Assembly (NCBI RefSeq): GCF_003918875.1
Contig: NW_025765825.1
Location: 124,001-188,000 of the forward strand
Origin: Haliotis rubra
Taxonomy: Eukaryota
Direction: 5' to 3'
Length of the DNA stretch: 64,000 bases
In this document: positions 1 to 52,600 of the stretch, piece after piece
Position numbering within the stretch: the stretch's first letter is position 1
Layout: every line of letters starts with the position of its first letter
Program-made: the position numbers

Positions 1-486
1 CAATATTTGTAAGGCGTGGCATGAAAATTGTATATTTTTCATTAATTGTTAACGTGTGTTTTTTGTTTCGTTCAAATTCTACACTCATATGTTTTCCATA
101 TAATTAACTTGTCCAAGTGTGAAGTTTCCCTTTGTGTTCAGTATAACAACGGGTATTCATATATCAAGCAGAGACAGATTGTCATACGTCACGATTCAGT
201 GGGAGAGCACTAATAACCCTCAGAATAGGCAAAAGATATCCATTCTAGAAATACACCTTCTTGACAGAAAATGTTCTTACATTAGACGTATGTGTTATGA
301 TTGATTTTATAAATGAGAACTCATCCAGCCCTTCCCAGTAATCATCATCTCATCTATCACACGTCAGGTACAGACACAATACAATAACAATCCAGTTCAA
401 TGTTTACACCTCCAGGCATATTGCCTTGAAGAGTTACGTTTCTATTAAAATAGACGCTAGGATTGATTTCTGGAGGAAATAAAGAA

Positions 487-552
<66 letters not shown>

Positions 553-46600: not shown

Positions 46601-49600
46601 GGGTGGGGTGTGGTGCCTGGGTGTTGGGGGTTGTACGTGTGAAATTGAAATTTCTCTACACACGCTTGTTGATTACCTGGCTGTTCTACCAGCAAGTGTC
46701 CCAACTCGTAAGAAATAGAGTTAAGCCGCAACAAAATAATGATCGTTTGTTAAACAACTCATCAGAGTTGGTCTGTCGATTTCATGTGACTGTGCAAAAG
46801 TTGGTTTTGTTGTAATTATTAGATTTTGTGTAAGTGAGCAATTCATAGGTCTCAAATGAAATCAAACGGACTTTAACACTGGGCTTTGTTTGAAATGTTT
46901 TGAATATACAATGTCCAATTATCATTAGCAGTTTGTTACCATTGTGACAAGATATAAAGGAGCATCAAATTAAATTGAAAATGTATCAACTGACCGCTGG
47001 CGTACTCAGGTTCCAGCCACCTTGCAAATTGAGCACCTGCAGCTCCCCAGCCCGAATTCTCCACGTTATTACACGTGCCATCAGTTGTCCTATAGGTGTC
47101 ACTTGAACTGCAGGTCGCTTGCCTGGATCAAAAAGCATCAAGTAACAGGCAACTGTCTTTATACACTCAACACACCATCGTAAAGTTATCTGAAAGTCCA
47201 TGACTTGGAATAGCAGGTAGTTAATTCTCAAAGTGTTATATATTAACGATTTATTGAACACCTCCTCAACACCTTCTGAAATGTTAAAGTTTAAGTAAAC
47301 ACAACATAACTTGTTTACAAATACACCACTTGCTGAGTAAACCCTTAAGCGATTAAAACACTCTCTCGGTGTTTGAGGTGCTGAGCAATATCGGGACCCA
47401 GTCTGCTTTCCTCTGTATGCAACGAATGCTTTTTCAGTGATTCAGTTAGTGTTTTGGGGTTGTTGTTTGTTTTTGTTTTATGCTGTACAGTATTAAAGCT
47501 GAATGATCAACTCGGTGATCACCATCATGTGCATCGATCTACGCAATCAATCTACGATCTACGATGTCAAATTCAGCTTTAAAACCCGCTTTGAATAGTA
47601 TCCTAGTACTTTCACGGTGTGTGGTGACATTTCAAGTGTAGTCAGGTTCAGCATATTAATCCCTGAAAGGCAGTCATTGTATGGAACAGGGCGGTGCGCA
47701 GCAGACGGTATATTGCGCACAAACATTATGTCAGTCATGAAACGGTAACTACAGAATATTGACTGTTGTTTCAATTATTTGCAAGAATATTATGGAGTGT
47801 GTGGTTTCAACACTTTCACCTGCCTATGAATATTATTATTTCTCTCTCGGATAGACATGCCCACCTCTTCTATTAACAGAAAAAGCAAACAGATATTTAA
47901 TTGCGTCAAAAAAGCATGCAATAGATAAACCCGGCATTATCAGCCGATGAAAACCTTTGTCTAGTACCGCCGCATCGTTTGCCTGTAGGCCAAGCTACAA
48001 CGAATGTAGCCAGTCCAAGTTCACAAATAGGCTTGCTTTAGAACCCCGGGACATCATCACTGTCATTGGAAATTTTCTATCATTTCTACCAATACTACTT
48101 GTTTTCTCTCTTGCAACTTGACTGGGTGTATCCAAGAAACTTGACATTCGCAACAACATTCAAAATCCTTTACTTTCCCTTAAAGTTGGGAAATTGATGT
48201 AAGTAAACATAATAGCACAATTCATTTTCACTGGGACACACATATTCTTCTATATACCTTTTTCTGTTGACAGGCTCCGTGTGTCTCTTGCTCTTTGATG
48301 ACCGCGACATTAATGCACATGGGGTTCTGCTTCCTCCGCACTCTGTCACGAAAATAAGGACGATTAAAATGTTAACCAAACGGGTTATCTAATAAAGTTT
48401 AAAAAAATCATGAGTTTGTTATCATCATCATTATTATTATTGTCATTATTTCTATATACATGTTACTAATTTAAGGTGAGGTGAAACGGGGTTAACGCCG
48501 TGCTTACGAATATTTCGCTCATATGACGATGTGCATGCGTTTGTATTTGTGGCTGCTTGTACTAGCCAAGACTGAAACTGTTTTATAGTGCAAGCTCACT
48601 AAGCATGAATACTCCACCCAGAGACATTATACTGACTCCGAGCCGACCAGTCCTTGGTGTACCCATTAATGCCGAGCGCAAGGCAGGGACCAACAAGTAC
48701 CATATTTTAACGTTTTGAGGTACGATGCGGCCGGGGATCAAACCCGCGACCTTCCGTTCTCCGGGCGGACTCTCTAACCACTACACCACGGAGGCGGTTT
48801 ACTAACTTAAGAATAGGTGCACCCTTCATACAGATATGACTACATGTTAATTCTCCCAAAGTTTTATGTCTTTTCATCCAAAGTGTATTTTGCCCAAAAA
48901 TACAGCCATATGGCGGCGGCCTGTAAATAATCGAGTCTGGACCAGACAAGCCAGTGATCAACAGCATGAGCATCGATCTGCGCAATTGGGAACCGATGAC
49001 GTGACTGTGTCAACCAAGCCAGCGAGCCTGACCGCCCGATCCCGTTATTCGCCTCTTACGTCTGGGATGAGATAACGCTTAAATAGGTCGGTCATTCCTC
49101 AGTTGACGGATTGCCTGGCATAGCAAAATACCAAATGATGTGTAAACATTCTTGTAATTTCTTGTATAAAGAATCAAACAAGTACAAACAAAACAAGTAC
49201 AATGGCAACCATATCCTTTGTGTAGCAATAATTACCGTGTATGTTTTTACTGAAGGCTCATTCTAACCCGGTGAGTGAGTGAGTTAAGATTTTAAGACAC
49301 ATCGGCAATATCTCAGCCATATCGTGACTATAAACAAGTTATGAATTCACCATAAATACATATAAATTATAAAAACCTGCCGACGAAGGACAGTAAAATC
49401 AACTAGAATACCACAGTATCCAGGAATAAAACTAGCAACTCTCTCTCAAATTGGATTTTAAATTAGGACACTTCAGTATAAAAACGGGCTATAGATCGCC
49501 AACAACTGCATTCTAACCCGGACCACAGGTATGAAACAACGTGAATCAAAATACATACCTGCATGGATAACGCAGAGAACGATCAGTAGAGCTTGGACAA

Positions 49601-52600
49601 GGAGTGACTGCATGATGCTACCTTCAGGATGGCTAGAGCCAGTGTGATGGAATACTCAAGGCTTGGCTATATATACATAATTTTCACAATGGGTATGAAT
49701 CTCATACAATCTGTTTCCATTTATTGACATTATTAATTGTATTGCTGACACCTGGAACTTGAAACAGATCCCAGCAGGGGGTGGAAGTTAAGCGCGTTGA
49801 TGATAAAACCCTGAATGGTAAATTGAACATTTAGATCTCGCATCGTCACATTTTGCAATGATGTATGTGATACGGTCCACACAATAATGCCCATCGCTTG
49901 CAGTTAGAGATACAGATTTCACCCTTATCAATATTGTTAATCTTATTATCAATTTTATAGCCTGTCCATATACCAGAATGTTAAAGCATAATTATCACTT
50001 TGCTGATTTAGGCAAGATAGGACTCAGATTCGGGATATCAAGTTTTTAAAAATCTAAGCTAACTAAGATGTTGTATTTACTACGTTTTATTATGGAACGC
50101 ACTTTTGATGGTGTCAATGCACCGATTCGGGTACATGAGTTACAATATCCAGGTAAGAGATCGCGCTAGTTTTCAACTTGCTCCATGCATGACTGACTGA
50201 GTTTAGTTTTACGCCGCTTTTAGCAATATTCCAGCAATACCACGGCGGGGGACACCAGAAAGCTCCCAATGCAATCTCATCATACTTGTTTTACTTACCT
50301 ATTTTGTTTTGTGAATACACAATGCAATTTAGATATGGTCAAATGCAACATATATTATATATTTTGGATTGATGAAGCCGCGGTGGTTGAGCGGGTTAGG
50401 AGTCTGTCTTTGTGTGCTGGCGATAAGGTGCCTGACTAGTACTCTGAGGGAGTGAGTTCGAATTCGGGTTGGGACTCAACCCAACAAAAGTACTATAATC
50501 TGTACTTTACTAAGAAAGTGTAATCCCAAATATAACATATGTTGTATTCTGTTTTGGTCAGTAATGATTACTATTTTTTTCAACGTGAGGTATTAGTATG
50601 AAATCAATTCATCTCAAAATCCTCTCATGGAATAGTTGGACGGGTATAAGGTCTTGTGCGTAAAATCTCTCATTGATGTAAATAATGCATCCCCCCGAAG
50701 GTTCGGGAGACATATTTCTGTTTTCATGGCAACAATTTGGACTAAGTCTTTTTGAAGTTTAAAGTTCGTTTCGGGAGCAAAATTCTGAAATTATCTGACC
50801 CACCTCTCCCAATTTGCCATACTGCCTCTCCATGACAAGCAGATGTGCCTCTTGGGGGTTTGAACTTTTCTTTCAATTTAATTTGTTCTGTTTCAATTAT
50901 TTTTTTCTGTTGAGGTCTCAACGTTGAATTGGGGGAAGGGGGAGACATCTGTTTTTACCAGTAAAAAGCTTTCTAGTCGAGTTCTGTGACAGTCTAAATA
51001 AAACGTTATAAGAGCGGTTCACGTTTTGTCGATTCACAATTTAGTTTTACGCCGCATTTAGCAATATTCCAGCTAAATGGTGACGGTCTGCAAATAATCG
51101 AGTCTACACAATTGGGATACGATGACACGTGTCAACCAAGTCAGCGAGCCTGACCACCCGATCGCGTTAGTTGCTTCTTTCGACAAACATGGGTTACTGA
51201 AGATCAATTCTAACTCGGATCTTCGCGGGTCTTTTGTGCTTGACTGGAATTGATATATTTATAGACAAGAAGTCGACCTTTTAAAATTTCTCTATGGACA
51301 CGAAGTCGACCAGCGGTAAACTTTGATGTTGAAGGTGTTGCTAGAGTCACACTAATCCGCTAGTAGGTGTTGTTTTAAGATTTTCGATAACGTCAGCATC
51401 GCGTAACGCGTGAACATAGTTCACTCACGTACTTCACTCAAAATGTCATTAATGTCATCACATGAGAGTGCATTTTACAATGATGAACATATCTCATTCA
51501 ATTTAGATATATGTAAGGAAAGAACTCGCGGTAGAATTAAGTTTCGAAATGGCAAATGCACAGTTAAATCGGTCATTTCTTCCTACATCTCGTGGTGGAA
51601 GATACCTGTGTTTTGTTGGATATATTTACCGAGTGAAATAAGAGGAAGCGAGATTCGAAGTGCACAGGAAAGAACTATAACTCCACTGCGTTAACTGTCC
51701 ATAGATCCAAGTGGAACCACCACGATTCCGACAGCCAAGCACCAACAACCGTCTGGAAGGGTGGCACTCTCGTCTGAAGAGATTGGTGGGAAAGGCCCAC
51801 CACAATATTTTTTAAGTAATCAAATTTCATGCTTAGGAGCACACTGAAGTCCGCCTGTTACAGTGGACAAAAACGTCCATTGAAGAACAAGAAATTCAGG
51901 GACTTGGAACGTCTTAGGAGTGGACAAGCCAGCACCAAACAGTTTGCAGATGCTGCATCTCACCTACTTTATGTTTGATGATTTTGTATACGAAATATAA
52001 TGGACGAAATATAGTACTATTCTCCTGTGCTCTCAACCGCATAATCCGGATTACCGCCTTGTGAAAACACTGGATTATCTCTTTGTCTTTTTAATCCCCT
52101 GTTAATTGGCATAAGGTCAAATGGACAGGACGTGGACCTTTCTTTCTTAACTGAACCGTGACATTTCACCCAAGGGTCGACGTCCTGGGCAGACACCAAC
52201 TGATACACACTCAATTTAGGAGAACAGCACTCGTATATCATTTGTGAAGTGTGATGCTGAGAATACATTGTAATTAATATATTTGTTATACTGAATTAAA
52301 GAAAAACACCGCTTGAAGTTTTGTTTGCTAAGATGCTGTAATATTTCCTCTTTCTCTGAGGCTGAATGTAACACGTGAGTGAGTGATCGTGAGTGAGTGA
52401 GTGAGAGAATTAACGCTTCCTTGAACAATACATGCATTTCTGTTCATGGCGTGCCATCTGCATTGTTTGAGAGGCATTTTAGAAGTTAAAGGAAACTATG
52501 GATAGTCAACTTCTTTATTGCAATGACTGCGACATTTCGGCGTAGGTAATAACGCCGTTTGGGTACAGTGTGTGAAGCCCATTTCTGGTGTCCACCGCCG

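What the first reader, a model, noticed from the sequence alone, without database searches (positions are those of the whole stretch)
1..51238. Two interlocked multi-kilobase inverted duplications build the peroxidase cluster
Seen: 9-11527 is mirrored at 18379-30324, and the spacer between those arms (11523-17659) is itself an inverted copy of 39914-51238. Gene order is A(-) D(+) B(+) E(+) C(-), a pseudoknot-like arrangement with a head-to-head pair on the left and a tail-to-tail group on the right. Inference: a template-switching rearrangement or duplication plus inversion; the arms could support recurrent inversion and arm-to-arm conversion.
Basis: partly seen in the sequence, partly recalled or inferred. 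Interest (0 to 1): 0.65.

Follow-up and report, generated by a model that had tools for sequence, protein, structure and literature searches.

The report
Nested inverted duplications, abalone peroxidase genes
Two real, interleaved inverted copies of abalone haem-peroxidase genes, most likely made by a broken DNA end folding back and copying its neighbour, leaving one intact gene and four damaged ones; a clear example of a known process, not a new one.

Summary
9-11527 mirrors 30324-18379, with 95.8% identity that is nearly uniform. 11523-17659 mirrors 51238-39914, with 93.5% identity that is strongly mosaic.

The window is abalone (Haliotis, closest to H. rubra), not human. It holds five animal haem-peroxidase copies in the order A(-) D(+) B(+) E(+) C(-).
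- C is the only copy with no lesion found.
- A and B have every splice site intact, but each carries a small frameshift.
- D and E are pseudogenes.

The A|D join is a chimeric junction with 5 nt of microhomology (CACAA). Only 0.62% of random breakpoint pairs reach 5 nt. An older direct copy, the E unit, crosses the matching point on the B side, so the A|D join is the derived state.

The anatomy matches fold-back inverted duplication: a 6,851-nt spacer and inverted microhomology. The best reading is two successive events, C to D first (older) and B to A later. A single event with several template switches remains possible. Mis-assembly is unlikely but cannot be tested without reads.

Verdict: a new member of a known kind, of modest interest.

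The parts
9..11527 (-). Arm A: inverted copy of arm B. It holds peroxidase gene A (signal-peptide exon 6288-6247, last exon 881-825) and about 5 kb of upstream sequence.
   Evidence: 95.8% identity to 30324-18379; exon layout.
825..6288 (-). Gene A: all 13 exons are present and 11 of 11 tested introns have frame-compatible GT..AG. Two separate 1-nt insertions in the exon for aa 196-230 (between 3732 and 3705) shift the frame by +2.
11523..11527 (.). Junction J1: the 5-nt microhomology CACAA shared by the reverse complement of the B side (18379-18383) and of the C side (51234-51238).
   Evidence: alignment; observed run 5; P(>=5) = 0.0062.
11523..17659 (+). Arm D: shortened inverted copy of arm C, carrying pseudogene D (signal-peptide exon 13106-13159; terminal-exon homologue near 17400). 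Several exons and the first part of the large exon are missing, and there are in-frame stops at aa 430 and 461 of the reference.
17660..18378 (.). A 719-nt stretch that is not part of either inverted pair. Together with arm D it forms the 6,851-nt spacer between arms A and B. Its right part (18099-18378) belongs to the old unit that is also preserved at 32207-32470.
18379..30324 (+). Arm B: the inferred source copy of arm A. It holds gene B (23887-29460).
23887..29460 (+). Gene B: all exons are present and 11 of 11 tested introns are intact. A 1-nt deletion in a TTT run in the exon for aa 80-138 (near 25730) shifts the frame.
32207..34946 (+). E unit: heavily deleted old direct copy of the B-type unit. 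Only three exons remain (34206-34840) and there is an in-frame stop.
   Evidence: eight collinear matches to 18099-27575 at 70-89%.
39914..51238 (-). Arm C: the inferred source copy of arm D. It holds gene C (signal-peptide exon 49613-49557; terminal exon about 40100-40050).
40040..49613 (-). Gene C: the only copy with no lesion found. It has a signal-peptide exon with a GT donor, 10 of 10 tested introns are frame-compatible, and the terminal exon ends in a stop. The lower coordinate is approximate.

Best explanation
This is a genuine genomic structure in an abalone. A locally amplified family of secreted animal haem peroxidases was enlarged by two nested inverted segmental duplications, each made by a fold-back (microhomology-primed, replicative) repair event.

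Inferred ancestral layout: spacer (17660-18378), then B(+), then the E unit and transposon debris, then C(-).

Event 1 (older): a free DNA end at 17660 folded back, primed at 39914 and copied C rightwards. This laid down D as an inverted copy to the left of the break.

Event 2 (younger): a break inside D at about 11523 folded back over 6.85 kb. It annealed through the 5-nt inverted microhomology CACAA/TTGTG at 18379-18383 and copied B, laying down A. Because the second event used the product of the first as its loop, the two repeat pairs are interleaved.

Afterwards D lost several exons through deletions, D and C exchanged sequence by conversion, and A and B each acquired a small frameshift. 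C is left as the only copy without a lesion.

Shown: the repeats, their divergences, the chimeric junction, the derived state of the A|D join, and the condition of each gene. Inferred: the fold-back mechanism, the order of the events and their number.
For: - **Repeats.** Both pairs are confirmed.
- **Junction J1.** It is a clean chimera with 5 nt of microhomology. This is rarer than chance: 0.62% of 196,984 random breakpoint pairs reach 5 nt.
- **Inverted microhomology at the spacer ends.** The spacer's distal end (11523-11527) and the start of B (18379-18383) are reverse complements, 6,851 nt apart (printout).
- **Match to known fold-back events.** In the passages read from PMC3907307, 21 of 21 sequenced human fold-back junctions had spacers of 766-70,466 bp, and 13 had 2-8 bp of inverted microhomology.
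- **Direction of copying.** The old E unit (32207-34946) is collinear with 18099-27575, so it crosses the point equivalent to 18379. Arm A is cut off there. The B side is therefore ancestral and the A|D join is derived.
- **Two ages.**
  - Mismatch divergence is 4.2% for A/B and 6.5% for D/C.
  - dS is 0.034 against 0.057, the same ratio of about 1.6-1.7 in coding and non-coding sites.
  - A/B divergence is near-uniform; D/C is a mosaic.
- **Independent decay of the copies.** Each copy has different lesions, while splice sites are intact in A (11 of 11), B (11 of 11) and C (10 of 10).
- **Family context.** H. rufescens and H. cracherodii each have many distinct 610-613 aa paralogues of this peroxidase.
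Against: - The outer junction of arm A lies at the window edge (8 nt remain). The resolving junction that any fold-back event needs could therefore not be examined.
- Microhomology at the D|spacer junction (17659/17660) cannot be assessed, because the spacer has no second copy.
- The age difference could instead reflect later homogenisation of A/B, which would fit a single event.
- D/C divergence is patchy, so its 'age' is itself uncertain.
- No reads, no second genome and no orthologous locus could be examined, so neither the assembly nor the polarity is independently verified.
- The 1-nt indels that disable A and B may be assembly errors rather than real mutations.
Confidence: 0.55

Rival explanations
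1. A single replicative event (MMBIR/FoSTeS) with serial template switches. From a break at 17660 the end copied C from 39914 to 51238, switched through CACAA to 18379, and copied B outwards. A and D would then be the same age, and A/B were later homogenised along their whole length.
For: The A|D microhomology junction fits a template switch just as well. Only one event is needed. The 2.9% block in D/C (13460-14624) shows that conversion does act at this locus.
Against: A/B divergence is lower than D/C by a similar factor in non-coding sites (4.2% against 6.5%) and in synonymous sites (0.034 against 0.057). It is also near-uniform over 11.3 kb. This model therefore needs one complete, arm-length homogenisation of A/B rather than patchy conversion.
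Confidence: 0.28
2. Classical duplication followed by inversions through homologous recombination (NAHR) between dispersed repeats such as the SINE-like elements.
For: The window is rich in repeats. SINE-like copies lie near some boundaries, for example 51097-51231 just inside the right end of C and 11572-11730 just inside D. The A|D join is formally the reverse complement of a tandem-duplication junction of the segment 18379-51238.
Against: At J1 the two parent sequences share only 5 nt and are unrelated on both sides, so no shared repeat spans the breakpoint. When I worked through the simple orders by hand (tandem duplication of B..C plus one inversion), none reproduced A-D-spacer-B-mid-C; at least three coincident breakpoints would be needed.
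Confidence: 0.1
3. Assembly artefact: two haplotypes, or collapsed and expanded paralogues, joined in inverted orientation.
For: Abalone genomes are heterozygous, and haplotigs were a documented problem in one abalone assembly (PMC6774278, passages read). The window contains one N run. A and B differ by only about 4%.
Against: Arm divergences of 4.2% and 6.5%, with 51 and 39 gaps, are about 3-5 times the 1.27-1.44% heterozygosity reported for H. rubra. D has lost about 4.7 kb relative to C, so it cannot be C's allele. No junction touches the only N run, 56834-57026. A 5-nt overlap is not how assemblers join contigs. A and B carry different private lesions.
Confidence: 0.07

Closest known systems
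Fold-back inverted duplications with a non-duplicated spacer (human constitutional and cancer rearrangements, yeast fold-back inversions; PMC3907307, passages read; PMC7467729, search listing only)
   Same: An inverted copy lies next to its source and is separated by a single-copy spacer of kilobase size (6,851 nt here, against 766-70,466 bp). [quoted passage not shown]
   Different: The structure here is interstitial and fixed (or at least assembled) in a wild mollusc genome. It is ancient (4-6% diverged), only 6-12 kb per arm rather than hundreds of kb to Mb, and appears twice in nested form. No terminal deletion or telomere capture can be seen, and the resolving junction lies outside the window.
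DUP-TRP/INV-DUP and other MMBIR/FoSTeS complex rearrangements (PMC4352052, search listing and start of abstract only)
   Same: Inverted copies are inserted next to direct ones through template switches with microhomology. The near-trichotomy of A, B and the H. rubra protein would fit a triplicated segment.
   Different: A DUP-TRP/INV-DUP has one junction inside pre-existing inverted repeats and a third, direct copy. No such repeat lies at J1, and a third copy is not visible in the window.
Large palindromes with arm-to-arm gene conversion (for example sex-chromosome ampliconic palindromes; recalled, no paper read)
   Same: Multi-kilobase inverted arms carry gene copies around a short spacer. 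There is evidence of arm-to-arm conversion in the D/C pair.
   Different: The arms here are 4-6% diverged rather than about 99.9% identical, so homogenisation is weak. Most copies are decaying, so conversion is not preserving the genes.
Animal haem peroxidases (myeloperoxidase, lactoperoxidase, peroxinectin; Pfam PF03098)
   Same: Single exons hit PF03098 at E down to 6e-42. The named H. rubra relative aligns end to end with myeloperoxidase at E = 2e-95. The distal QWGQ..DHD motif, the GD.R motif and the FRFGH motif are present.
   Different: These are short secreted proteins of about 600 aa with no extra domains. At the position aligned with the myeloperoxidase Glu-Met of 'RSSEM', the abalone proteins have Val-Phe (alignment; the role of that Glu in haem linkage is recalled). 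The names 'thyroid peroxidase-like' and 'peroxidasin-like' are automatic, not tested.

Membership tests
Animal haem peroxidase (PF03098) | Profile match above the curated cut-off | tested here: met
   five of the six peroxidase exon ORFs scanned (from A, B and C) score 43.9-144.4 bits against a cut-off of 25. The sixth, a short B exon, scores 22 bits, just below it.
Animal haem peroxidase (PF03098) | Full-length similarity to solved peroxidases, with conserved distal His/Asp, catalytic Arg and proximal His motifs | tested here: met
   P0001 matches myeloperoxidase at E = 2.3e-95 over residues 40-603. The same motifs are seen in exons of A, B and C. Which residue plays which role is recalled, not computed.
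Fold-back inverted duplication | Inverted copy adjacent to its source with a single-copy spacer between them | tested here: met
   the arms are 9-11527 and 18379-30324, with a spacer of 6,851 nt. The spacer is single-copy with respect to the A/B pair, although most of it is itself a copy of C.
Fold-back inverted duplication | [quoted passage not shown] | tested here: met
   5 nt (CACAA at 11523-11527 is the reverse complement of 18379-18383); P(>=5 nt) = 0.0062 from 196,984 random pairs. The D/C pair could not be tested, because the spacer end at 17660 has no second copy.
Fold-back inverted duplication | A second, resolving junction at the far end of the inverted copy (telomere, translocation, or a switch back) | not testable with these tools
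   Arm A ends 8 nt from the window start. No flanking sequence or eukaryote genome collection was available.
DUP-TRP/INV-DUP | One junction inside pre-existing inverted repeats, and a triplicated segment | tested here: not met
   the parent sequences at J1 share only 5 nt. A third copy is not present in the window. hints that a third lineage exists (P0001), but where it lies is unknown.
NAHR-mediated inversion or duplication | Breakpoints inside long homologous repeats | tested here: not met
   no shared repeat spans J1. J2 (17659/39914) is a sharp break.
Haplotig mis-join (artefact) | Arm divergence in the allelic range, and a junction at a gap or contig end | tested here: not met
   4.2% and 6.5% compared with 1.27-1.44% heterozygosity. 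The only N run (56834-57026) is far from every junction. Read depth is not testable.

The most novel reading that the evidence does not exclude
The two interleaved inverted-repeat pairs may form a natural two-state 'flip-flop' locus. Recombination between A and B would invert the D-containing spacer, and recombination between D and C would invert the B-E block. Abalone populations would then carry several orientations of the locus, and arm-to-arm conversion could shuttle variation, or rescue frameshifts, among peroxidase copies. The near-trichotomy of A, B and the H. rubra protein could further mean that the window shows only part of a larger inverted triplication extending to the left.
Probability: 0.12. 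Interest if true: 0.55.

Novelty: new member of a known kind. Interest (0 to 1): 0.3.

Why it matters
This is a clear, base-resolved example in a wild marine mollusc of the microhomology-primed fold-back duplications best known from human disease and cancer genomes. It suggests that the process can act twice at one locus, giving interleaved inverted repeats. It also illustrates how a locally amplified immune- or oxidative-type gene family turns over: copies are added quickly, but four of the five here are already damaged.

In practical terms, it warns annotators that this peroxidase locus holds near-identical inverted paralogues and pseudogenes. These can confound read mapping, expression counts and variant calls in abalone genomics.

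It does not reveal a new mechanism or a new kind of gene.

Tried and rejected
- **Rfam scan.** A scan of the whole window at gathering thresholds found 0 matches, so no structured RNA explains the repeats.
- **Pfam on other ORFs.** Ten of the 17 ORFs scanned had no Pfam match at E <= 0.01, including those at 59116-59499, 59574-59945 as scanned, 63254-63685, 38618-39070 and 14047-14427. I did not pursue them.
- **First microhomology counter.** It grew the k-mer from the wrong end and returned 'observed 0'. This was a bug, corrected.
- **First splice-junction finder.** This was a method failure, corrected.
- **Low-stringency peptide search.** It produced a very long list of chance hits. Only the four signal-peptide exon hits (E <= 1e-5) were used.
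- **NAHR between SINE-like repeats as the cause of J1.** Rejected, because the parents share only 5 nt.
- **Tandem duplication of 18379-51238 plus one inversion.** Worked through by hand and rejected, because it gives the order B-A-D-C rather than A-D-spacer-B-mid-C.
- **Literature.** Three searches for a published description of this abalone locus listed 4, 11 and 9 papers. None is about it, judging from titles and the starts of abstracts only.
- **Joined exon models.** Searches used single exons or named database proteins, so a search with a joined model was left out. This leaves a full-length comparison of A, B and C undone.
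Full report
**Origin of the window.** The window is 64 kb at 39% G+C, with one N run at 56834-57026. I left the N run alone. The large exon of the repeated gene is 99% identical to 'thyroid peroxidase-like [Haliotis rubra]' (P0001, 604 aa), and the next best hits are other Haliotis species. The contig is therefore abalone, not human. None of the 120 listed proteins was flagged as encoded by the window itself, and P0001 differs from every copy here. I only say 'Haliotis, closest to H. rubra'.

**The observation.**
- Pair 1: 9-11527 is the reverse complement of 30324-18379. 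The alignment has 10,825 matches, 470 mismatches and 51 gaps; identity per 500 columns is 94-98%, apart from 92% and 88% in the two end blocks, which run past the arm ends.
- Pair 2: 11523-17659 is the reverse complement of 51238-39914 in seven collinear blocks, with 5,968 aligned nt and 388 mismatches.
- Four stretches of C have no counterpart in D, which is why D is 6.1 kb and C is 11.3 kb.
- Arm A begins 8 nt from the window edge, so its outer limit is unknown.

**The genes.**
- Family: five of six peroxidase exon ORFs scanned pass the Pfam cut-off for the animal haem peroxidase family, at E down to 6e-42. P0001 aligns end to end with myeloperoxidase and lactoperoxidase at E about 1e-95.
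- Layout: mapping P0001 and P0002 on the window gives five copies in the order A(-) D(+) B(+) E(+) C(-). All four long copies keep a signal-peptide exon.
- C: no lesion found. 10 of 10 tested introns have frame-compatible GT..AG, and the terminal exon ends in a stop.
- A: all splice sites are intact (11 of 11). Two separate 1-nt insertions in one exon give a net +2 frameshift.
- B: all splice sites are intact (11 of 11). A 1-nt deletion in a TTT run shifts the frame. The indels in A and B could be real or could be assembly errors.
- D: lacks several exons and has two in-frame stops.
- E: a three-exon fragment with one in-frame stop.
Searches were exon by exon or with named database proteins.

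**Ages and selection.**
- Summed over exons, dS is 0.034 for A-B (dN/dS 0.46) and 0.057 for C-D (dN/dS 0.50). Between the two gene types dS is 0.27-0.30 (dN/dS about 0.19).
- In aligned non-coding plus coding sites, divergence is 4.2% for A/B and 6.5% for D/C.
- A/B is close to homogeneous (permutation P = 0.049; longest identical run P = 0.09). D/C is a mosaic of 2.9-9% per block (P<0.0005; longest identical run P = 0.001).
- A tree of the large exon groups A, B and the H. rubra protein (support 98/93). It places C and D with an H. asinina protein (94/99).
- Site by site over 523 positions, A, B and P0001 form a near-trichotomy. They have 5, 6 and 6 private changes, one change shared by A and B, and none for the other two pairings.
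- H. rufescens and H. cracherodii each hold many distinct 610-613 aa paralogues. Local amplification of this family is therefore general in abalone.

**Junctions.**
- At J1 the sequence follows the reverse complement of the B side up to 11527 and of the C side from 11523. The two parents share exactly CACAA and are unrelated on both sides. Only 0.62% of 196,984 random breakpoint pairs in this window share 5 nt or more.
- The motif at 11523-11527 is the reverse complement of 18379-18383, 6,851 nt away (printout).
- On the B side, sequence is continuous across 18379 within a unit that also survives as the E unit. Eight collinear direct matches link 32207-34946 to 18099-27575 at 70-89%. That continuity is older than the A/B split, so the A|D join is the derived state.
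- J2 (17659/39914) is a sharp break. Microhomology cannot be judged there because the spacer has no second copy.
- The left end of C abuts a diverged repeat that ends at 39913.

**Mechanism.** This anatomy matches fold-back inverted duplication. In the passages of PMC3907307 that I read, all 21 sequenced human junctions had a non-duplicated spacer of 766-70,466 bp, and 13 had 2-8 bp of inverted microhomology.

I propose two successive events.
1. A free end at 17660 primed at 39914 and copied C, giving D.
2. Later, a break in D at about 11523 folded back, annealed at 18379-18383 and copied B, giving A.

This explains three things without coincident breakpoints: the interleaving, the truncation of D exactly at J1, and the age ratio of about 1.6-1.7 seen in both coding and non-coding sites.

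The main rival is one replicative event with two template switches, followed by complete homogenisation of A/B. NAHR between repeats is disfavoured by the 5-nt junction.

Mis-assembly is disfavoured on four counts:
- arm divergences are about 3-5 times the 1.27-1.44% heterozygosity reported for H. rubra (PMC6774278, passages read);
- D has lost about 4.7 kb relative to C;
- no N run lies at any junction;
- A and B carry different private lesions.

Without reads, mis-assembly is not excluded.

**Comparison and verdict.** The closest known systems are fold-back inverted duplications and the MMBIR class of complex rearrangements. The structure works like these, and it meets the two defining features that could be tested: the spacer and the inverted microhomology. 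The resolving junction could not be tested. The structure is not a DUP-TRP/INV-DUP by the features tested. It resembles large palindromes only loosely, because its arms are 4-6% diverged.

This is a new member of a known kind: a tidy natural example, nested twice, in a mollusc gene family. I score interest at 0.3.

**What stayed unchecked.**
- Orthologous loci in other abalone. No eukaryote genome collection was available.
- Read support for the assembly.
- Inversion polymorphism.
- Expression of the copies.
- The supplementary junction tables of PMC3907307 and the supplementary tables of PMC6774278.

Noticed in passing
A 4070-3951, B 26216-26335, C 44217-44098, D 15066-15185: The 120-nt exon for aa 157-196, plus about 10 nt on each side, is almost identical in all four copies, although the adjoining introns of the A/B type and the C/D type cannot be aligned. 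Synonymous divergence between the two types is a mosaic from exon to exon: pS is 0.04-0.07 in exons 2, 5 and 8, but 0.5-0.7 in exons 1, 6 and 11. Given the pS of the other exons, the chance of at most 1 synonymous difference in exon 5 is 0.002-0.005. This suggests old, exon-limited gene conversion that predates both inverted duplications, or unusual nucleotide-level constraint.
   Followed up: partly
32207-34946: The E 'gene' is the remnant of an old direct (tandem) copy of the whole B-type unit, upstream region included. It is now reduced from about 9.5 kb to 2.7 kb by deletions. dS to A and B is about 0.24-0.26.
   Followed up: yes
whole locus; P0001 (H. rubra XP_046565071): A, B and the H. 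rubra protein are equidistant: 18, 24 and 20 amino-acid differences pairwise and a trichotomy by informative sites. P0001 is encoded by neither A nor B as they stand. It may be a third copy outside the window or the orthologue in a sister taxon.
   Followed up: partly
36635-39913 and 55105-56830: A diverged (72-78%) direct repeat of about 3 kb in four collinear pieces. The left copy ends exactly at the C-arm boundary (39913/39914). The right copy runs up to the N run at 56834, which was left untouched. It is probably a transposable element. The ORF at 38618-39070 inside the left copy had no Pfam match.
   Followed up: no
10564-10915, 18954-19301, 36922-37253, 48474-48800, 60331-60665: A SINE-like family of about 330 nt with at least five copies at 80-88% identity. 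The copies in arms A and B are at corresponding positions, so that insertion predates the A/B duplication.
   Followed up: no
53614-54150 (-) and 36234-36647 (+): A reverse-transcriptase fragment (PF00078, E = 3e-16) and a weak DUF6897 match (E = 2.6e-5). The right third of the window and the region between B and C are largely transposon debris.
   Followed up: no
A about 7949; B 21870-22218: A 349-nt stretch is present in B and absent from A. Part of it (21983-22055) is also found in the old E unit, so it is a deletion in A rather than an insertion in B.
   Followed up: partly
exon for aa 266-318 in A, B and C (for example 2985-2824): At the position aligned with the Glu-Met of myeloperoxidase 'RSSEM', the abalone proteins have Val-Phe (alignment). 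From memory, that Glu forms one of the covalent haem links, so these enzymes may bind haem through a single ester bond. Not tested.
   Followed up: no
A intron, about 1600-1660: A (CA)n-type microsatellite inside the intron after the exon for aa 488-544 of gene A, seen as a run of Thr-His codons when the intron is translated through. It was not examined in B.
   Followed up: no
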